DNA of 64,000 nucleotides, taken from positions 1 through 64,000 of IMG/VR virus record IMGVR_UViG_3300046331_000099; one strand, given 5' to 3'. The notes beneath the pieces were generated by a model, which did no database searches, was not told the origin of the DNA, and saw nothing but the letters and a program-made list of their open reading frames with translations. The DNA comes from a virus. A program made the position numbers and the translations under genes. Positions 27,999-33,467 of this stretch are shown here, piece after piece. The first letter of the stretch is position 1. Every line of letters starts with the position of its first letter.

Positions 27999-28145
27999 AA
28001 TTAGTGCACATCTATCAATTGGGACTCTTACCCCAGTGTTTCTCAGCATCCAGTTGCCCTTTGCTGACGCAGTATACACTGCAAAGACGACCGAGATGGC
28101 GGGATCGTCTACTGTTTACTTTTCGGTTAATTACTCCGACTAATT
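27999..28145 (-). ncRNA. multi-hairpin structured RNA
   Basis: AATTAGT/ACTAATT closing stem; AGACGA/TCGTCT, GCAGT/ACTGC, TCAGCA/TGCTGA helices. Confidence 0.5.
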
Positions 28146-28147
28146 CT

Positions 28148-28223
28148 TGGTCTCCGTAGAAGGATTCGAACCTTCACCCCACCGCCCCAAACGGCGAGTG
28201 CAACCTGATAACACTTTACAGAG
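28148..28223 (-). tRNA. tRNA-Pro(TGG), second divergent copy
   Basis: Loop TTTGGGG, C1-G72. Confidence 0.8.
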
Positions 28224-28228
28224 ATAAC

Positions 28229-28303
28229 TGGTACTGCGTACGGGTAACGATCCCGTCTAGTCAGCTTGAAAGGCTGATGACCTCACCTGAAGTCGAACGC
28301 AGT
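28229..28303 (-). tRNA. tRNA-Glu(TTC), second copy, T-loop ATCGTTA
   Basis: Loop CTTTCAA. Confidence 0.8.
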
Positions 28304-28311
28304 ATAAAAAT

Positions 28312-28402
28312 TGGTGGACAACAATGGGAATCTAACCCACTTCTTTCCCCTATGCTGTTAGGGAATTTCATGCCAGCAGCAGGCAATTGACACATCAAGT
28401 CC
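28312..28402 (-). ncRNA. tRNA-like RNA with CCA end and no canonical anticodon
   Basis: GGAC/GTCC-ACCA, TGGG-TTAGATT-CCCA arm, two internal hairpins. Confidence 0.55.
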
Positions 28403-28407
28403 ATAAT

Positions 28408-28482
28408 TGGTGGAGACCGAGGAAATCGAATCCTTCTAGACATCCTCCTTGCAAGGGAGAACCGTAGCCCACTACTGTCCCC
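28408..28482 (-). tRNA. tRNA-Ala(TGC), miniature D-arm
   Basis: G3:U70, A73, loop CTTGCAA; D-arm GTAG-TGGG-CTAC. Confidence 0.7.
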
Positions 28483-28565
28483 AAATTAGGGTTAGTTTCT
28501 ATAGCACCCATTGAAACTAACAAACGTTGAGTAACCATACATCAAAACAAGATTACTATTTGCTC

Positions 28566-28644
28566 TGGCTCCGTGTGTGAGGATCGAACTCACCTAATCA
28601 TTGATTAACAGTCAAGTCCTTGCACCATGCTTGGATTTCACGGA
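28566..28644 (-). tRNA. tRNA-Asn(GTT), second copy
   Basis: Loop CTGTTAA; anticodon arm identical to the 23544 copy. Confidence 0.8.
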
Positions 28645-28654
28645 ATAAAAATAA

Positions 28655-28722
28655 CAGGATGATTTTGACGAACATGTCAAATTATAAGTTTGGTGTTCTT
28701 GTTGATTGCAGAACTCATCCTA
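28655..28722 (-). ncRNA. CAGCAA-stem RNA E7 with possible anticodon stem-loop (UAU)
   Basis: TAGGATGA/TCATCCTG plus GTTCTGCAA; CAAA-CTTATAA-TTTG. Confidence 0.7.
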
Positions 28723-28726
28723 AAAC

Positions 28727-28800
28727 TGGCGACGCATGGGAGAATCGAACTCCCGTCTATGGATAGACAATCCACGATAATGCCATTATATGAATGCGCC
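28727..28800 (-). tRNA. tRNA-Asp(GTC), second copy with U37
   Basis: Loop TTGTCTA, G73. Confidence 0.8.
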
Positions 28801-28806
28801 GTAACT

Positions 28807-28881
28807 TGGTCCTCTCGAAAGGAATCGAACCTTAGGTCTATCGCTTATCAAGCGAGTGCTCTACCATTGAGCTACAAGAGG
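28807..28881 (-). tRNA. tRNA-Ile(GAT)
   Basis: Loop TTGATAA. Confidence 0.85.
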
Positions 28882-28889
28882 AAATACTT

Positions 28890-28965
28890 TGGTGCCTATG
28901 AGTGGACTCGAACCACTAACACATGGATTTTCAATCCACTGCTCTACCATTGGAGCTACACAGGC
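28890..28965 (-). tRNA. tRNA-Phe(GAA)
   Basis: Loop TTGAAAA. Confidence 0.9.
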
Positions 28966-28969
28966 AAAT

Positions 28970-29044
28970 TGGGGAGATGTACGAGAATCGAACTCGTGAT
29001 AACGGAATCACAACCCGTGGTTTTACCACTAAACTAACAACTCC
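28970..29044 (-). tRNA. tRNA-His(GTG)
   Basis: Loop TTGTGAT, G-1:C73. Confidence 0.9.
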
Positions 29045-29049
29045 ATAAA

Positions 29050-29133
29050 CCATATAGAAACACACTGGCTTGCAAGACTCCTACTAACCTTTCGATAGAT
29101 GTCGCAGTTAGTATTCAATGTGTTTTCATATGG
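29050..29133 (-). ncRNA. long-stem-enclosed element
   Basis: CCATATGAAAACACATTG/CAGTGTGTTTCTATATGG. Confidence 0.55.
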
Positions 29134-29205
29134 TAGGGGCACAGAGAATCGAACTCTGATTACATGGTTAAAAGCCACGTACTTTAGCCGTTAAGTTATA
29201 CCCCC
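29131..29205 (-). tRNA. tRNA-Lys(TTT)
   Basis: Loop CTTTTAA. Confidence 0.9.
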
Positions 29206-29208
29206 ATA

Positions 29209-29284
29209 TGGTCCACTCTCTGAGATTCGAACTCAGCCTTCATAGGTTAAGAGCCTAGTATGCTGCCAACAACATCTAGAGTGG
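29209..29284 (-). tRNA. tRNA-Lys(CTT)
   Basis: Loop CTCTTAA. Confidence 0.8.
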
Positions 29285-29293
29285 TTGTACGTA

Positions 29294-29368
29294 TTATTTT
29301 GATTTTACGTGCCAACTCAGACCATACGGGGGATCTGAGTGACACTAACGTTTACCTGAACGTTTCAT
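29294..29368 (-). CDS. mini-ORF MKRSGKR(UAG)CHSDPPYGLSWHVKSK(UAA)
   Basis: AAGGAG SD; 12-bp hairpin starting at the UAG. Confidence 0.5.
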
Positions 29369-29390
29369 GCTACTCTCCTTGTTAAACTTA

Positions 29391-29459
29391 CCAAATAAAA
29401 ACATACTACTCATCTGCTTATTAGGCAATTTGAATGTTCGGCAGTATGTTTTTATTTGG
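29391..29459 (-). ncRNA. long-stem-enclosed element
   Basis: Perfect 17-bp CCAAATAAAAACATACT/AGTATGTTTTTATTTGG. Confidence 0.6.
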
Positions 29460-29530
29460 CACCCGAGGTAAGAATCGAACTTACAATAACAGAGTCAAAG
29501 TCTGGTGTGTTACCACTACACTACTCGGGA
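29457..29530 (-). tRNA. tRNA-Gln(TTG)
   Basis: Loop CTTTGAC, G73. Confidence 0.9.
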
Positions 29531-29633
29531 ACATACGACTTAGGCAATACTAACAGGGCATTCGATATCGGCGTTAGCCAAAATCACTTACCCCGACTTT
29601 CTAACCTAAGTCGCAATAAAAACTGGTGCAGAT

Positions 29634-29644
29634 TGTTAAAGATC
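29634..29644 (-). promoter_or_regulatory. boxA-like antitermination site
   Basis: GATCTTTAACA vs rrn boxA GCTCTTTAACA, just downstream of a promoter. Confidence 0.6.
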
Positions 29645-29681
29645 TAAAGCTAATCAAGAGATCAAGATCAGCGAGGCATTT

Positions 29682-29918
29682 ATTATACATCAGCTAAGAT
29701 ATAAAGTCAACACCTTTTTGGATAACCTTACTAACCGTAGGGTCTTTCCAAGGTTTCATGGGAATCGCTTCTCATTCAACCTAAGACATAATCTTACATC
29801 ATGTCAGCGTTACTGTCAACAACTTTCTGAAAGACTTTACTGTTAGTAGGGTTTCTTTCATCATCGTTCTTCACACTAACTAAGCATTGATTATACAGCA
29901 CAAGTGCTTTACCGTCAA
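29682..29918 (-). promoter_or_regulatory. three tandem sigma70 promoters (29682-29710, 29791-29819, 29890-29918)
   Basis: TTGACT/TTGACA/TTGACG-17-TATAAT/TAAGAT at ~100-bp spacing. Confidence 0.8.
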
Positions 29919-29960
29919 CACCTTTCTTTAAAGACCCCACATCGTGGTAGACTATAAAGC

Positions 29961-29995
29961 AAAAAACCCTCGAGATTCACATCTTCGAGGGTTTT
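29961..29995 (-). terminator. intrinsic terminator of a putative attenuator
   Basis: AAAACCCTCGA-loop-TCGAGGGTTTTTT. Confidence 0.85.
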
Positions 29996-30014
29996 GGTAA
30001 AGAGACTTATTCTC

Positions 30015-30146
30015 TTACATCTTCTTACCAAAACCCTTCGTATCCTCAATCGCATAGCCAGAACCTTCTACAAATGATGGGCGTGTGCTTGTCCATCCGT
30101 TATTCAACGGTAGCTGTTTATGCATTTTGGAACAAGAGAGTAACAT
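30015..30146 (-). CDS. 43-aa leader peptide containing all 20 amino acids
   Basis: Manual translation; its 3' end carries the antiterminator arm; promoter TTGACA-17-TAAGAT at 30224-30252. Confidence 0.7.
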   Translation of the reverse strand: MLLSCSKMHKQLPLNNGWTSTRPSFVEGSGYAIEDTKGFGKKM

Positions 30147-30263
30147 AGTAGAAAGAATTCTATCCTAGAAGTTGATTGAAGTCAAGTGGTTTGTTCAACC
30201 ACCTGTAGATCTATTTAGACAATATCTTAGCTCAGTTTGAACTATTTGTCAAGTATTTTGAAA

Positions 30264-30824
30264 TTATTTTAGTAAGTCTGCCACACACTGTGGAACTACT
30301 GGCTCCAACATCCTCTCAGGATGCCAAACAATACCAAAGATTGGAAGATGTTCATGTCTGAACGCTTCGATGGTCTGATCAGCCTCATGCATTGCAATTG
30401 GAATCATCCCTTTACCAAGAGTCTTGATTGTCTGTCCGTGGTAACTATTTACAAGAACCTTCTTACCATCCATCACAACTTCATGATCTGTTTTATCATG
30501 AGTTGGCACCAAATTCCAATCAATGTCATTCTTACCACCAGTAAGATCATTGATTGCAAAAGCACCATGACACACACCAAGGATCGGCTTTTTATTCTGC
30601 ACGGCATGATAGAACAATGCGTTCTCTGTGTAGTTTCTAGCAACAGAATCAGTGCCACCAGAAAGAACTAAACAATCATACTCGATGTCAGGAACAAATC
30701 CAGTATTGGCTACTGGAATGAGATGATGACTGCTTAGAAAGGAGTACCAACTTCTCTCCAAGCAGTCAAACAAGAAATTATTTGGAGGGATCCGAAAATC
30801 CCTCTGTGAAATCAAAATTTTCAT
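30264..30824 (-). CDS. class I glutamine amidotransferase (peptidase C26 / PuuD-like)
   Basis: LSGG, GVCHG, VNSYHGQ, WHPE. Confidence 0.9.
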   Translation of the reverse strand: MKILISQRDFRIPPNNFLFDCLERSWYSFLSSHHLIPVANTGFVPDIEYDCLVLSGGTDSVARNYTENALFYHAVQNKKPILGVCHGAFAINDLTGGKNDIDWNLVPTHDKTDHEVVMDGKKVLVNSYHGQTIKTLGKGMIPIAMHEADQTIEAFRHEHLPIFGIVWHPERMLEPVVPQCVADLLK

Positions 30825-30841
30825 AACAAAGGGATTAGGTA

Positions 30842-31615
30842 TTAGACGCTAGCTTCTTTACCATTGAACGCAACACATAGGTCACGATGTGGTTCGCCAT
30901 ACGCTTCTAGCATGATTGCTTGAACTTCTGGAGAAGCAGTCTTGAAGTCACCCAAAGATGTGCAAGAACATTCGAACAAGTCCCAAACCATTTCTTTAAC
31001 ATGAGAAAGAGCTTGTGCTTGGGCTTCTGGAGTTGTTACCAACTTCTCGAGCATCAAACGACCAATGTTAGAGTGGAACTTCTCGTCACGAGCAACACGG
31101 TCATAACGCTTCTGGATGAACTCATCACCAGCGCATTGAGCCATTGTTTGCCATACTTTAGCAGCACGACCTTCAGCCATGTATTGGTACATGTGCATCA
31201 TGATTGGATTATCATGGGCTTCGTACTTCTGGATCAAAGATGCGCCCATACGAACGTCAACTTTACCATACTCTTTCCAGATTGCTTCTAGGTCTGGTGC
31301 TTCACCAGTCAAGTGCTCTAGAACTTCGTAAACGATACGGAAGTGTTCTGCTTCGTCCCATGCTTGCTTAGAAAGCAAACGGCATTCTTCTGGGTTAGTC
31401 AAAGCTGGTAGTTCGGAAACTTTCTTAGAAAGTTCGATCATGTTCATACGTTCGTTAGACAAACGGATGTGGAAGAAGTTAGCGAGCTTTTCTTTGTCGC
31501 CCTTTACTTCGTCGAAGAACTGACGTGTTTGGATCTCAGCCACTTTGTGTAGTGGCATGAAGGATTCCCACAGGTCGTCCAAGAATTCTTTTGCTGGTTT
31601 AGCAGTTGCTGTCAT
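30842..31615 (-). CDS. ferritin-like diiron protein
   Basis: NERMN, DEAEH, AEGRA, DEKFH; late promoter TATAAATA at 31685-31692. Confidence 0.8.
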   Translation of the reverse strand: MTATAKPAKEFLDDLWESFMPLHKVAEIQTRQFFDEVKGDKEKLANFFHIRLSNERMNMIELSKKVSELPALTNPEECRLLSKQAWDEAEHFRIVYEVLEHLTGEAPDLEAIWKEYGKVDVRMGASLIQKYEAHDNPIMMHMYQYMAEGRAAKVWQTMAQCAGDEFIQKRYDRVARDEKFHSNIGRLMLEKLVTTPEAQAQALSHVKEMVWDLFECSCTSLGDFKTASPEVQAIMLEAYGEPHRDLCVAFNGKEASV

Positions 31616-31704
31616 TTGAGTTTTCCTTTAAGTATAAAAGTTAAAGTGTTGTTGAAATAGAGGCACATCTTGTACCTCATATTCTATTTATAAGAGAAAT
31701 AGAC

Positions 31705-32661
31705 TCACTTTTGGTTATTTTTTGATAAAACTGTATCTACAAGAGGTTGCCACTGTTTTTCACGTGTTTTCACCCACAATTTCATGGCTTCTGGGTTTTG
31801 TAGAACCTTGTTTTGAACCAATAGGTTGTCATAGAAGATAGCCTTAACTTCATCAGAATTCAAAGCCTTAGTGAACTCTCGGTTGTACCATTCGATAACA
31901 TCTTTCGGTACACCAGCTGGAAGCATTAAAGCCCACATTCCAGATACATTGAAATTAGGAATAGCTGTATCCATAGTTTGGGCTTCTGGAATCTGAGCTA
32001 ATGGTATAATACCACTCAACGCTACAACTTGCACTCGTCCATCTCTATAGAATGGATTAGCCACTGCAGATGGGACGATAGCAAACCGTACATGACCACC
32101 AGCTACATCGTTCAATGCATCGTTTGGACCTTTGTGGTCTACACGAACAACATCAGAGAACTGAACTTTTGCAGCAATAGATTCATAGACCAGTCTAGCA
32201 CCACCGCTTGCAGCAATAGTTACCTTCTCGGTCTTAAGAGCCTGAACCAATTGTTTTGGAGTTTTTACTGGATCGCCAGACTTAGCCACGACAACGAATG
32301 GGCTAGTAGCAATATGAGTTGGATAGACAAAACTATCAACATTGTATGAACGACCATCACCTTGAACAGAAACCTTGTCCATAGCTGCAATCCCTGGAAC
32401 AGAGACGTTAGTTACAGAGTACCCATCAGCTGGACGCTTGCTCAATTCTTCAGTACCAATAACACCACCAGCACCTGGACGATTAGTGATAACAAATTTT
32501 GCACCAGTGTTTTGTTCAACTTGTTTAGCTAGGACACGGAATGAGAGTTCATTCACACTTCCAGGTGTCCATGCCATAATCGCTTCAATCGGTTTTGTCG
32601 GTTGCCACGCAAAAGCAGAAGCAGACATCACCATCAACAAACTAATTACGAGTTTTTTCAT
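31705..32661 (-). CDS. TctC/Bug tripartite tricarboxylate transporter substrate-binding protein
   Basis: Signal peptide, WQPTKPI, NRPGAGGVIG, ADGY. Confidence 0.9.
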   Translation of the reverse strand: MKKLVISLLMVMSASAFAWQPTKPIEAIMAWTPGSVNELSFRVLAKQVEQNTGAKFVITNRPGAGGVIGTEELSKRPADGYSVTNVSVPGIAAMDKVSVQGDGRSYNVDSFVYPTHIATSPFVVVAKSGDPVKTPKQLVQALKTEKVTIAASGGARLVYESIAAKVQFSDVVRVDHKGPNDALNDVAGGHVRFAIVPSAVANPFYRDGRVQVVALSGIIPLAQIPEAQTMDTAIPNFNVSGMWALMLPAGVPKDVIEWYNREFTKALNSDEVKAIFYDNLLVQNKVLQNPEAMKLWVKTREKQWQPLVDTVLSKNNQK

Positions 32662-32750
32662 ATTCTTTCATCATCCTATTCATAAAATCTTCATCAGATT
32701 CATAGTTAAAAGACCACTCCCAAAATTGTTTCAGGAGTGGTTTGGTTTCA

Positions 32751-33467
32751 TTAAGCAGCCATTTCAAATTTGTAATCATATGCTTCTTCAACGATCTTAG
32801 CAGCTTCTGGAAGGAATGTTGTTCCTTTTGCAGAGATAGCGTATAAGTCTTTGCGCATTTCATTAGCCAATTCAGTGGCACGTGCTTGGGCTTCTGGTGT
32901 AGTAACCAGTTGCTCTAATTTCCACTTACCGATGTTGGAGTGGAATCCTTCGTCACGAGCGATCTTAGCATAACGGTGGCTAATAAAGTCGTCTTCAATA
33001 GTCTCAGCCATTTGATTCCAAACTGCTTCGGCACGACCTTCGGCGATTGTTTGATACAATGCTAGTGCTAGATCGTCAGTTTGTGCTTCGTACTTGTCCA
33101 ATAGGCTAGCACCTTTATTCTTAATACGAGTTTCCCAAGATGCGGCTGCTGCTTCTAAGTCCACGGCTTCACCTGTGATGTGCTCAATAACTTCTTTTAC
33201 CATACGGTAGTGTTGGGCTTCGTCAAGTGCTTGTTTGCTCAGCAACTGAAGTTCTTCAGTACTGGTGTTTAGTGGCATTTCTGCAATTTTCTTGGAGATT
33301 TCAATTAGGTTCATACGTTCGTTAACCATACGACCAGTAAAGTGGTCTACAAGAGTTTCCTTGCTTGGGTTAGATTCGAAGTATGCCTTTACCTGCATTG
33401 CAGATGCTGTGAATAAAGGTTGATTGGCTGCAGCTAGTTCGCTGACAAATTCTTTTGCGGCTTTCAT
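32751..33467 (-). CDS. ferritin-like diiron protein (paralog of 30842)
   Basis: NERMN, DEAQH, AEGRA, DEGFH; late promoter TATAAATA at 33532-33539. Confidence 0.8.
   Translation of the reverse strand: MKAAKEFVSELAAANQPLFTASAMQVKAYFESNPSKETLVDHFTGRMVNERMNLIEISKKIAEMPLNTSTEELQLLSKQALDEAQHYRMVKEVIEHITGEAVDLEAAAASWETRIKNKGASLLDKYEAQTDDLALALYQTIAEGRAEAVWNQMAETIEDDFISHRYAKIARDEGFHSNIGKWKLEQLVTTPEAQARATELANEMRKDLYAISAKGTTFLPEAAKIVEEAYDYKFEMAA

What the first reader, a model, noticed from the sequence alone, without database searches (positions are those of the whole stretch)
29961..30252. Codon-sampling leader peptide plus attenuator upstream of the tRNA array: candidate general tRNA-depletion sensor
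Seen in sequence (minus strand): promoter TTGACA-17-TAAGAT (30224-30252), then a 43-codon ORF absent from the track (30146-30015), MLLSCSKMHKQLPLNNGWTSTRPSFVEGSGYAIEDTKGFGKKM. It contains all 20 amino acids, and its first 37 codons use 33 different codons (four Leu, four Ser, three Gly codons, plus CCG, GCG, ACG, CGC). Codons 37-41 contain AGGGTTTTGGTAA, a perfect 13-nt complement of TTACCAAAACCCT (30000-29988), which overlaps the 5' arm of the intrinsic terminator (29995-29961). Established: trp/his-type attenuators couple ribosome position on a leader to terminator choice, but each senses one or a few amino acids. Inference: a ribosome reaching the stop covers the antiterminator arm and transcription ends; stalling at any depleted or cleaved tRNA frees the arm and allows read-through towards an array that supplies all 20 tRNA types, e.g. 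against anticodon-nuclease defences. Caveat: three further promoters lie between the terminator and the tRNAs, so only read-through transcription would be controlled.
Basis: partly seen in the sequence, partly recalled or inferred. Interest (0 to 1): 0.92.

Follow-up and report, generated by a model that had tools for sequence, protein, structure and literature searches.

The report
All-amino-acid leader gating phage tRNAs
A tiny gene that is kept spelling all 20 amino acids sits with a switchable transcription stop right in front of this phage's full set of tRNA genes, so the phage probably makes extra tRNAs when ribosomes run slowly for want of any one of them.

Summary

Comparison with relatives makes it more than chance.
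- The element occurs in 91 related uncultured-phage loci, giving 63 distinct peptides of 37-46 aa.
- 53 of the 63 hold all 20 amino acids. The other 10 lack exactly one.
- His and Tyr occur exactly once in 63 of 63 peptides, but at 5 and 6 different alignment columns.
- Tree-aware simulations reach this in 0 of 1000 runs.
- In 80 of 87 loci the next gene is tRNA-Gln, the head of a same-strand array. The other 7 run out of DNA.
- In 23 of those 80 no promoter lies between the terminator and tRNA-Gln.

Best reading (about 0.6): a ribosome-mediated attenuator that senses overall aminoacyl-tRNA supply and gates the tRNA operon.

Weak points:
- The lower stem is invariant, so it gives no covariation.
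- The hairpin covers only part of the terminator arm.
- The window itself has three promoters downstream.
- Nothing is tested at the bench.

The mechanism class is known (amino-acid operon leaders, the mycobacterial whiB7 uORF). Its use on a phage tRNA operon was not found in print. This scan has noted the same kind on other DNA before.

The parts
30224..30252 (-). Promoter P1 (TTGACA-17-TAAGAT), 77 nt upstream of the ATG
   Evidence: A promoter at this place is found in most relatives.
30183..30218 (-). Conserved CTAAATAGA just after P1, followed by a hairpin of variable sequence whose 3' arm overlaps the -35 of P2
   Evidence: Sequence. The hairpin appears in the fold. Its role is unknown.
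30157..30185 (-). Promoter P2 (TTGACT-17-TAGAAT). Its -10 box ends 10 nt before the ATG, so the mRNA is predicted to be leaderless or nearly so.
   Evidence: In most relatives the -10 box ends 6-7 nt before the ATG. Two clades lack P2 and have AAGGA about 11 nt upstream instead. The transcription start is predicted, not mapped.
30015..30146 (-). Leader ORF, 43 codons plus TAA, holding all 20 amino acids
   Evidence: The frame is open in all 91 loci that hold it whole, indels are in frame, and one clade shows a Ser codon-family switch TCC to AGC. No Pfam or PHROG family matches.
30093..30113 (-). Local hairpin inside the ORF (codons L-P-L-N-N-G-W), kept in relatives with different sequences and registers
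   Evidence: a hairpin of -5.7 to -11.9 kcal/mol is predicted at this place in all 23 coding sequences folded.
30076..30082 (-). Tentative segment 0 (GCCCATC, codons R-P-S) that can pair with the 5' end of segment 1
   Evidence: RNAalifold on 24 sequences gives 6 pairs, 2 of them with compensatory changes. Not examined further.
30025..30037 (-). Segment 1: 5' arm of the anti-terminator hairpin, inside codons 37-41 (K-G-F-G-K)
29988..30000 (-). Segment 2: 3' arm of the hairpin. Its last 8 nt (AAAACCCT) are also the start of the terminator's 5' arm.
   Evidence: The TTACC part lies outside both the ORF and the terminator, yet it is conserved.
29961..29995 (-). Intrinsic terminator (11-bp stem including A:U pairs, 13-nt loop as drawn, then a run of 6 T)
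   Evidence: 98.9% of cells paired, and 2 pairs with compensatory changes in 17 cells.
29682..29918 (-). Three further sigma70-type promoters (29918-29890, 29819-29791, 29710-29682) in roughly 100-nt repeated units
   Evidence: They are absent in 23 of 80 related loci.
29632..29644 (-). boxA-like GATCTTTAACAAT in the leader of the tRNA array
   Evidence: A strict boxA-like pattern was found before tRNA-Gln in 36 of 80 loci. The lead came from scan notes.
21104..29530 (-). tRNA array that starts with tRNA-Gln(ttg) at 29530-29457
   Evidence: 31 genes at default threshold, 36 genes and 20 isotypes at -ps90.

Best explanation
This is a ribosome-mediated transcription attenuator that forms the 5' leader of the phage's tRNA operon.

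Proposed mechanism:
1. A strong promoter starts a leaderless or nearly leaderless mRNA.
2. Its 37-46-codon ORF is kept by selection to contain every one of the 20 amino acids.
3. The last codons of the ORF form the 5' arm of a long hairpin. The stop codon lies inside the hairpin. The 3' arm overlaps the 5' arm of a strong intrinsic terminator.
4. If a ribosome keeps pace with RNA polymerase and reaches the stop codon, it holds the 5' arm open, the terminator forms and transcription ends.
5. If the ribosome is delayed at any codon for want of any charged tRNA, the hairpin holds part of the terminator arm. More polymerases then run on through a boxA-like element into the array, which encodes tRNAs for all 20 amino acids.

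Shown here:
- the anatomy and its conservation;
- its fixed place at the head of the array;
- selection for a complete amino-acid set;
- the lack of any other promoter in part of the family.

Inferred, not shown:
- translation of the ORF;
- the transcription start;
- the effect of the hairpin on termination;
- the physiological trigger.
For: 1. Family. The element is in 91 sources and gives 63 distinct peptides. The loci were collected through a neighbouring gene or through DNA motifs, never through composition.

2. Complete amino-acid set.
- 53 of 63 peptides of 37-46 aa hold all 20 amino acids, and the other 10 lack one.
- In the window's own proteins such windows are 0.4-1.2%.
- With the same tree and the same number of changes per column, simulations give a mean of 7.5-8.7 and a maximum of 31 of 63. 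0 of 1000 runs reach 53.
- The earlier set gave 22 of 23, reached in 0 of 2000 runs.
- His, Tyr and Asp occur exactly once in 63 of 63. His sits at 5 alignment columns and Tyr at 6. Cys occurs once in 59 of 63, at 6 columns.

3. Regulatory rather than protein-like evolution. Amino-acid identity is lower than in the adjacent enzyme in the four distant pairs, yet the same codon is kept at 115 of 143 identical residues, against 440 of 806 in that enzyme.

4. Position.
- In 80 of 87 loci the next gene is tRNA-Gln(ttg) on the same strand. The other 7 have at most 247 nt left. No locus has a tRNA upstream.
- In 23 of the 80 the gap is 49-53 nt with no promoter-like site.

5. The array matches the leader. 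20 isotypes are found in the window at -ps90, and in 14 of 18 loci with more than 7 kb of DNA downstream.

6. RNA structure.
- The nascent RNA up to segment 2 folds into the full hairpin in 13 of 13 representatives, at -15 to -27 kcal/mol, against -16 to -21 for the terminator.
- The hairpin interior folds better than its shuffles in 46 of 46 distinct interiors, median z -2.4.
- One upper-stem pair alternates AU (22 sequences) with GC (20).
- In a partition-function model of 64 RNAs, the base of the terminator stem forms with median probability 0.22 when naked, 0.31 with a ribosome mid-ORF and 0.97 with a ribosome at the stop.

7. Start of translation. The -10 box ends 6-10 nt before the ATG in most lineages. 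The two lineages without that promoter have an SD-like AAGGA.

8. RNA libraries. A 513-nt metatranscriptome contig, from a relative about 92% alike, spans the ORF, the terminator and 190 nt beyond. Its depth figure is 214, against 3.4 for the contig on the end of the upstream gene.
Against: 1. The 9-10-bp lower stem of the hairpin never varies, so it gives no covariation. In four sequences of the first set its T:A pair is replaced by an A.C mismatch.

2. The hairpin sequesters only AAAACCCT of the terminator arm, and the loop-proximal TCGA stays free. In the full-length MFE, 6 of 13 representatives, the window among them, show a shortened hairpin beside an intact 8-bp terminator stem.

3. For the window's own RNA the modelled switch is weak: 0.71 naked against 0.98 with a ribosome at the stop. 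Five of the 64 modelled RNAs were mis-indexed and are uninformative.

4. 57 of 80 loci, including the window with three, have 1-3 strong promoters after the terminator. There, read-through would add only part of array transcription.

5. Peptide motifs (S-R, K-Q/H-L-P-L, W, R-P, G-F-G-K) are conserved. A function of the peptide itself is not excluded.

6. The set is not perfect.
- 10 of 63 leaders lack one amino acid.
- L120 and L152 lack Val, although their arrays hold tRNA-Val. L094 lacks Cys, although its array holds tRNA-Cys.
- 13 of 63 have no internal Met, so elongator tRNA-Met would not be sampled there.

7. tRNA-Ala and tRNA-Asn of the window are seen only at a relaxed threshold.

8. 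The RNA evidence is from assembled contigs. These cannot show ends, strand or single molecules, and X3 and X5 hold no leader.

9. The transcription start is only predicted.
Confidence: 0.6

Rival explanations
1. It is an ordinary small-protein gene with its own promoters and terminator. It only happens to sit beside the tRNA array. The hairpin stabilises the 3' end of its mRNA.
For: The ORF is open in all loci and indels are in frame. Motifs such as K-Q/H-L-P-L, W, R-P and G-F-G-K are conserved. 57 of 80 loci have separate promoters for the array. The gene order could simply be inherited.
Against: No protein function explains selection for a complete amino-acid set with rare residues that move about. 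Amino-acid identity is lower than in the neighbouring enzyme, while synonymous sites are more conserved. In 23 of 80 loci the array has no promoter of its own. The peptide matches no family, and only 5 related proteins were found in the 5.8-billion-sequence set, none of them named.
Confidence: 0.12
2. The peptide itself is the output. It could be a trans-acting reporter of translation capacity, for example a regulator of the array's promoters whose synthesis falls when any tRNA is short. Or it could be an arrest peptide whose conserved W...R-P motif stalls the ribosome in response to a ligand.
For: This would explain both the complete amino-acid set and the conserved motifs. It would also fit the loci where the array has its own promoters.
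Against: It does not explain why the stop codon always lies inside a hairpin that overlaps the terminator. It does not explain the promoter-less loci. No known arrest motif was tested or matched, and the resemblance is only recalled.
Confidence: 0.15
3. It is a non-coding structured RNA, either a small RNA or a riboswitch-like leader that binds a ligand or tRNA directly. On this reading the ORF is incidental.
For: Synonymous sites are strongly conserved. Internal hairpins are conserved. The folding z-score of the 263-nt region is -4.2.
Against: The ORF is open in every locus, indels are in frame, and there is a Ser codon-family switch. Composition selection makes sense only if the ORF is translated. 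No Rfam family reaches threshold; the only hit in the region is a chance-level microRNA model at E = 0.66.
Confidence: 0.06
4. It is chance: a short ORF that happens to hold 20 amino acids next to an ordinary terminator.
For: For the window alone the composition is only a roughly 1% event. One other short ORF among 77 in the window also has all 20 amino acids.
Against: The element is conserved in 91 loci, with 53 of 63 complete sets, and 0 of 1000 simulations reach that.
Confidence: 0.01

Closest known systems
Leader-peptide attenuators of amino-acid operons (trpL, hisL, leuL, pheL; multivalent thrL and ilvL). Established knowledge, recalled here.
   Same: Both have a short translated leader ORF, an intrinsic terminator, a competing upstream hairpin whose formation depends on where the ribosome is, and read-through when charged tRNA is short.
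   Different: Those leaders carry runs of one to three regulatory amino acids and control biosynthetic enzymes. This leader carries every amino acid, mostly once or twice, and heads a tRNA operon of a phage. The predicted mRNA is leaderless. The hairpin overlaps only part of the terminator arm.
whiB7 uORF attenuator of mycobacteria (PMC10274678; abstract and passages read)
   Same: Efficient translation of a diverse uORF gives a Rho-independent terminator, and translation stress gives an antiterminator and read-through. Which amino acids are sensed depends on which the uORF contains. [quoted passage not shown]
   Different: That uORF is Ala-rich, varies in length and content between species, and controls a transcription factor. 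The paper does not report selection for a complete set. Here completeness itself is conserved in a minimal 37-46 codons, and the regulated product is the tRNA set.
Anabaena trn operon, a long tRNA array induced by translational stress (PMC8421152, passages read; PMC10272220, abstract read)
   Same: Both are an accessory array of many tRNA genes whose expression rises when translation is impaired.
   Different: Control there is at the promoter, through direct repeats bound by the repressor TrcR. The words leader, attenuat- and terminator do not occur in the main text of PMC8421152.
pyrBI leader of E. coli (recalled)
   Same: It is a leader ORF of about 44 codons in which the distance between ribosome and polymerase decides termination.
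   Different: There the ORF runs through the terminator and the signal is UTP-dependent polymerase pausing, not tRNA supply.
T-box riboswitches
   Same: They sense tRNA charging and act through a terminator/antiterminator choice.
   Different: They bind tRNA directly, without translation. No T-box or any other Rfam family matches this region.
Earlier notes of this scan: leader-peptide attenuators gating phage tRNA arrays on other DNA (AI notes, unchecked)
   Same: They describe a short leader ORF written in the amino acids of the tRNAs that follow, plus a switchable terminator.
   Different: Those describe several blocks per phage, each with a partial amino-acid set. Here one leader with the full set heads one array with all 20 isotypes. 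I did not examine those loci.

Membership tests
Ribosome-mediated (leader-peptide) transcription attenuator | A short ORF in the 5' leader that is translated | tested here: inconclusive
   The ORF is conserved and open in 91 loci, with in-frame indels, a Ser codon-family switch and composition selection. It has either a leaderless promoter or an SD-like site. There are no ribosome or peptide data.
Ribosome-mediated (leader-peptide) transcription attenuator | An intrinsic terminator between the leader ORF and the regulated genes | tested here: met
   A GC-rich stem plus a run of 6-7 T is present in all loci with the region, with 2 covarying pairs.
Ribosome-mediated (leader-peptide) transcription attenuator | An alternative structure that excludes the terminator and is itself excluded by a ribosome at the end of the ORF | tested here: inconclusive
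   The hairpin is conserved and the stop codon lies inside it. The model gives 0.22 naked against 0.97 with a ribosome at the stop. But the overlap is partial, the full-length MFE often keeps the terminator stem, and the lower stem is invariant.
Ribosome-mediated (leader-peptide) transcription attenuator | Regulatory codons that match the regulated product | tested here: met
   The leader has all 20 amino acids in 53 of 63 peptides. The arrays have all 20 isotypes in the window and in 14 of 18 long loci, at -ps90.
Ribosome-mediated (leader-peptide) transcription attenuator | Downstream genes depend on read-through, with no promoter in between | tested here: inconclusive
   Met in 23 of 80 loci. 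Not met in 57 of 80, including the window with its three promoters.
Ribosome-mediated (leader-peptide) transcription attenuator | Read-through rises when the cognate charged tRNA is limiting | not testable with these tools
   This needs a reporter, an in-vitro coupled system or infection data.
whiB7-type uORF sensor of general translation stress | A compositionally diverse uORF coupled to a terminator/antiterminator | tested here: met
   The description of the family comes from PMC10274678.
whiB7-type uORF sensor of general translation stress | It controls a WhiB-type transcription factor with positive feedback, in Actinobacteria | tested here: not met
   The gene downstream is tRNA-Gln, the head of a tRNA array, in a phage.
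T-box riboswitch | Specifier loop and T-box sequence (Rfam model) | tested here: not met
   No Rfam match at E up to 1 in 29955-30260, apart from a chance-level microRNA model.
rrn-type antitermination leader | A boxA element downstream of the promoters and upstream of the stable-RNA genes | tested here: inconclusive
   GATCTTTAACAAT lies at 29644-29632, but a match is expected by chance in 27 of 100 shuffles. A strict pattern is found before tRNA-Gln in 36 of 80 loci. The boxA consensus is recalled, not tested.

The most novel reading that the evidence does not exclude
The leader is a universal cis-acting gauge of aminoacyl-tRNA supply, a 'pangram' peptide kept at near-minimal length.
- With it the phage reads out, on one nascent transcript, whether all 20 decoding channels of the infected cell work.
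- It switches on its private, complete tRNA set when any one fails, whether through starvation, codon-usage mismatch or host tRNA-cleaving defences.
- The leaderless start would lock the first ribosome to the polymerase, so that a delay at any codon counts.
- Together with the earlier notes of this scan, this would make leader-peptide gating a general rule of large phage tRNA arrays.
Probability: 0.45. Interest if true: 0.9.

Novelty: new variant of a known kind. Interest (0 to 1): 0.85.

Why it matters
Why and when phages express their tRNA genes is an open question. Proposed answers include codon-usage compensation and replacement of tRNAs lost to host shut-off or to tRNA-cleaving defences. 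A built-in sensor at the head of the array would show that at least part of this expression is demand-driven, and the locus gives a direct handle for testing that.

The leader is also a natural example of selection on the set of amino acids in a peptide rather than on its sequence. It generalises the logic of the trp and his leaders, and of the whiB7 uORF, from one or a few amino acids to all twenty in about 40 codons.

As a part for engineering, a 190-nt cassette that reports the supply of every charged tRNA could be useful. The experiments are simple: twenty single-omission reactions in a reconstituted system.

Tried and rejected
Searches that led nowhere:
- blastn of 29500-30900 against the cultured-phage collection gave no match. 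tblastn of the neighbouring amidotransferase gave only distant hits. So no cultured relative is at hand.
- The peptide has no Pfam or PHROG family.
- Rfam gave nothing in the region.

Ideas I considered and dropped:
- A PqqA-like E-x3-Y motif in the peptide. Relatives delete the E.
- A link to the neighbouring diiron and amidotransferase genes as a peptide-modification cluster. I dropped it without a test, once the composition signal and the tRNA linkage appeared.
- That GGTAA:TTACC to GGAAA:TTTCC in distant relatives is compensatory. The pair count shows an A.C mismatch instead.
- That secondary HMM hits mark further copies of the hairpin. They are the opposite strand of the same palindromic site.
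- That leaders lacking Val or Cys head arrays lacking those tRNAs. They do not.

Errors in my own scripts:
- The automatic ORF rule mis-framed L086 and L088. Their correct peptides are those, and they were corrected.
- In one search, five RNAs with a CCCC/GGGG terminator base were mis-indexed and read 0.00 throughout.

Rows dropped:
- L011 was dropped because the contig ends inside the element.
- One search counts 87 of 91 loci, because in 4 no G-run plus T-run was found in the search window.

RNA runs: X3 and X5 showed no cover upstream of 29877. Absence in contigs proves nothing.

Searches behind 'not found in print'. The library lacks most subscription journals, and supplements are closed, so older phage T5 or T4 tRNA-region papers may have been missed.
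Full report
**What is there.** The window is 64 kb of a 73-kb IMG/VR virus record rated 43% complete. Related contigs reach 164-174 kb. The minus strand carries an array of 31 tRNA genes from 29530 to 21104.
- promoter P1 at 30252-30224;
- a 43-codon ORF at 30146-30015;
- AGGGTTTTGGTAA in codons 37-41 (30037-30025) and its perfect complement at 30000-29988;
- an intrinsic terminator at 29995-29961.

Its -10 box ends 10 nt before the ATG. The ORF has no Shine-Dalgarno sequence at a usable distance, so it would be read from a leaderless or nearly leaderless mRNA. The hairpin pattern occurs once in the window and never in shuffles. The 263-nt region folds with z = -4.2. No Rfam family matches it.

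**Chance, for the window alone.** All 20 amino acids occur in 0.8% of 43-residue windows of the window's 50 long ORFs (95 of 11798). At least 33 distinct codons in 43 codons occurs in 1.0%. One other of 77 short ORFs in the window also has 20 amino acids. Taken alone, the window could be a lucky find in a large scan.

**Relatives.** I collected related loci in three ways that do not look at composition:
- through the amidotransferase gene upstream;
- through the exact hairpin arms;
- through an 8-nt motif of the ORF plus the 5' arm, leaving the 3' arm free.

A profile of the element then found it in 92 sources, the window among them. In 91 the ORF is whole. L011 ends inside it. There are 63 distinct peptides of 37-46 residues. 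Every one is open. Length differences are in frame, for example 12 nt and 3 nt. One clade replaces the Ser-Arg codons TCC-AGA by AGC-AGA, which points to selection on the amino acid.

**The composition signal.**
- 53 of the 63 peptides contain all 20 amino acids. The other ten lack exactly one: Val six times, Cys three times, Trp once.
- His, Tyr and Asp each occur exactly once in all 63 peptides. Yet His sits at five different alignment columns and Tyr at six.
- Cys occurs once in 59 of 63, at six columns.
- A typical peptide has eight amino-acid types present only once, so almost any substitution there should destroy the set.

I tested this with the element's own tree. I placed the observed number of parsimony changes of each column (317 in all) at random on the branches, starting from a complete set. 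New residues were drawn either from the proteome background or only from residues seen in that column. Complete sets survived in a mean of 7.5 or 8.7 leaves of 63, at most 31, and never 53, in 1000 runs each. The first, smaller set gave 22 of 23 observed, against at most 17 in 2000 runs. Beyond the amino-acid level, synonymous codon diversity is at or above expectation in all 23 sequences tested. Individually it is weak, with P from 0.003 to 0.47.

**Regulatory rather than protein-like evolution.** In the four most distant genome pairs the leader is 53-60% identical at the amino-acid level. The adjacent amidotransferase is 72-80% identical. Where residues are identical, however, the leader keeps the same codon in 115 of 143 cases, against 440 of 806 in the enzyme, summed over six pairs. 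A local hairpin spanning the codons L-P-L-x-x-G-W is predicted in all 23 coding sequences folded, with different sequences and two registers. The peptide matches no Pfam or PHROG family. It has five unnamed relatives among 5.8 billion proteins.

**Position.** A terminator T-run could be located in 87 loci.
- In 80 of them the next gene is tRNA-Gln(ttg) on the same strand. The other seven have at most 247 nt of DNA left. No locus has a tRNA upstream.
- In 57 of the 80, one to three sigma70-type promoters lie between the terminator and tRNA-Gln. The window has three.
- In 23 of the 80, with 14 distinct gap sequences from several peptide lineages, the gap is only 49-53 nt. It holds a small hairpin and a boxA-like TTGTTCTTTAAAAATTTG, and no promoter-like site. 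In these phages the head of the array can only be reached by polymerases that pass the leader's terminator.

The arrays are complete sets. At a slightly relaxed ARAGORN threshold the window has tRNAs for all 20 amino acids. Ala and Asn are missed at default. The same holds for 14 of 18 loci with more than 7 kb of DNA downstream.

**The RNA switch.** The hairpin has three parts:
- an invariant lower stem, GGGTTTTGG with CCAAAACCC;
- one position that is T:A in the window's clade and A.C or C.A elsewhere;
- an upper stem that differs between three sequence types.

In every member the stop codon lies between the two arms of the hairpin.

Evidence for the hairpin:
- The TTACC part of the 3' arm is conserved although it lies outside both the ORF and the terminator.
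- The interiors fold better than their shuffles in 46 of 46 distinct cases, median z -2.4, with 30 below -2.
- One upper-stem pair alternates AU (22 sequences) with GC (20).
- The nascent RNA up to the 3' arm folds into the complete hairpin in 13 of 13 representatives.

Evidence that weakens it:
- The lower stem gives no covariation at all.
- The hairpin covers only the first 8 nt of the terminator's 5' arm.
- In the full-length minimum-energy fold, 6 of 13 representatives, the window among them, show a shortened hairpin next to an intact 8-bp terminator stem.

A partition-function model summarises this. The base of the terminator stem is formed with median probability 0.22 in naked RNA, 0.31 with a footprint in mid-ORF and 0.97 with a footprint at the stop codon (64 RNAs, five of them mis-indexed). 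For the window itself the figures are 0.71, 0.61 and 0.98, which is a weak switch. The terminator itself is well supported: 98.9% of cells are paired and two pairs have compensatory changes. RNAalifold also proposes that GCCCATC in codons R-P-S pairs with the start of the 5' arm, with two covarying pairs. That would give a trp-like four-segment layout. I did not pursue it.

**Expression.** Freshwater metatranscriptome assemblies hold parts of the stretch.
- In run X2 a 513-nt contig from a relative, with 34 differences, runs from 30191 to 29768. It spans the ORF, the terminator and 190 nt beyond. Its depth figure is 214, against 3.4 for the contig on the end of the upstream gene.
- In X1 a 127-nt contig ends at 29960, the end of the terminator's T-run.
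- In X3 and X5 cover stops at 29868-29877, just downstream of the promoter at 29918-29890.

These are contigs. They cannot show ends, strand or single molecules. I take them only as a sign that the leader is present in RNA libraries far above the neighbouring gene.

**Interpretation.** The element is a translated leader whose completeness is under selection. It is coupled to a terminator through a ribosome-sensitive hairpin, at the head of an operon that supplies tRNAs for all 20 amino acids. A ribosome that keeps pace and reaches the stop favours termination. A ribosome delayed anywhere, or absent, favours read-through. The predicted leaderless start would load the ribosome as soon as the 5' end emerges. 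That would make delay at any codon count, which may be why the whole ORF is used for sampling. Where promoters were inserted behind the terminator, as in the window, the attenuator can only modulate part of the flux.

I put this reading at 0.6. The rivals are:
- a small protein gene, 0.12;
- a peptide that acts in trans or arrests the ribosome, 0.15;
- a non-coding RNA, 0.06;
- chance, 0.01.

The rivals that deny translation or deny selection are poorly compatible. The trans-acting peptide is not excluded.

**Comparison with what is known.**
- The logic is that of the amino-acid operon leaders (recalled).
- Closer still is the whiB7 uORF of mycobacteria. There, efficient uORF translation gives a terminator, stress gives an antiterminator, and the amino acids sensed are those present in the uORF. 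The M. smegmatis uORF encodes all but cysteine (PMC10274678, abstract and passages).
- An accessory tRNA array induced by translational stress is known in Anabaena. It is controlled at the promoter by TrcR (PMC8421152 passages; PMC10272220 abstract).
- Five full-text searches found no leader-peptide control of tRNA genes. The library lacks most subscription journals.
- This scan has itself reported leader-peptide attenuators in front of phage tRNA arrays on other DNA. Those notes are unchecked, and I examined none of their loci.

I therefore rate this a new variant of a known kind. Within that, its unusual feature, measured here, is a minimal peptide kept complete for all 20 amino acids.

**A second family.** A more distant group (L015-L018, L110) has, between the same amidotransferase gene and a tRNA array that starts with tRNA-Tyr (in L110, tRNA-Ile):
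- a promoter whose -10 box ends 6 nt before an ATG;
- an ORF of 67 codons (49 in L110, from an internal ATG) that again holds all 20 amino acids;
- a terminator whose 5' arm can pair with codons near the end of the ORF.

With only two distinct sequences this is an anecdote.

Noticed in passing
L015:4860-5165 (also L106:1466-1770) and L110:1425-1725: A second, dissimilar leader upstream of another tRNA array. Its promoter's -10 box ends 6 nt before an ATG. The ORF has 67 codons (L015) or 49 codons (L110, from an internal ATG, because the first ATG is followed by a stop). Both ORFs hold all 20 amino acids. A terminator follows, whose 5' arm can pair with codons near the ORF end.
   Followed up: partly
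window 25473-25547 (-): A tRNA with anticodon CUA, which ARAGORN labels Pyl. It is a possible amber suppressor inside the array.
   Followed up: no
window 28408-28482, 28566-28644, 23544-23622 (-): Low-scoring tRNA-Ala(tgc) and two tRNA-Asn(gtt) that ARAGORN reports only at -ps90. They complete the set of 20 isotypes. Rfam also gives a sub-threshold tRNA-Sec-like hit at 27589-27677.
   Followed up: partly
window 29682-29950 (-): Roughly 100-nt repeated units, each with a near-consensus promoter followed about 60 nt later by a hairpin of the type CCCTAC-N4-6-GTAGGG TCTTT. Relatives have one to three such units, or none.
   Followed up: partly
window 29632-29644 (-); L003 and 22 other loci, 49-53 nt after the terminator: A boxA-like CTTTAACAA/CTTTAAAAA motif, preceded in the promoter-less loci by a small hairpin (GGGCATCGTCCC or GGCCATCGTGCC). 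This resembles the boxB-boxA leader of rRNA operons.
   Followed up: partly
window 30183-30218 (-): CTAAATAGA right after promoter P1 is conserved across relatives. It is followed by a hairpin of variable sequence whose 3' arm overlaps the -35 of P2. Its function is unknown. Transcripts from P1 would carry the ORF without a Shine-Dalgarno sequence.
   Followed up: no
window 30264-33467 (-): Upstream genes unusual for a phage: a class I glutamine amidotransferase / peptidase C26, two ferritin-like diiron proteins with only weak PaaA/AurF matches below cut-off, and a TctC/Bug-family solute-binding protein.
   Followed up: no
window 29400-30400, runs X1-X5: Freshwater metatranscriptome assemblies hold this locus or close relatives at high depth figures. 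Several strains with different post-terminator sequences co-occur in one run.
   Followed up: partly
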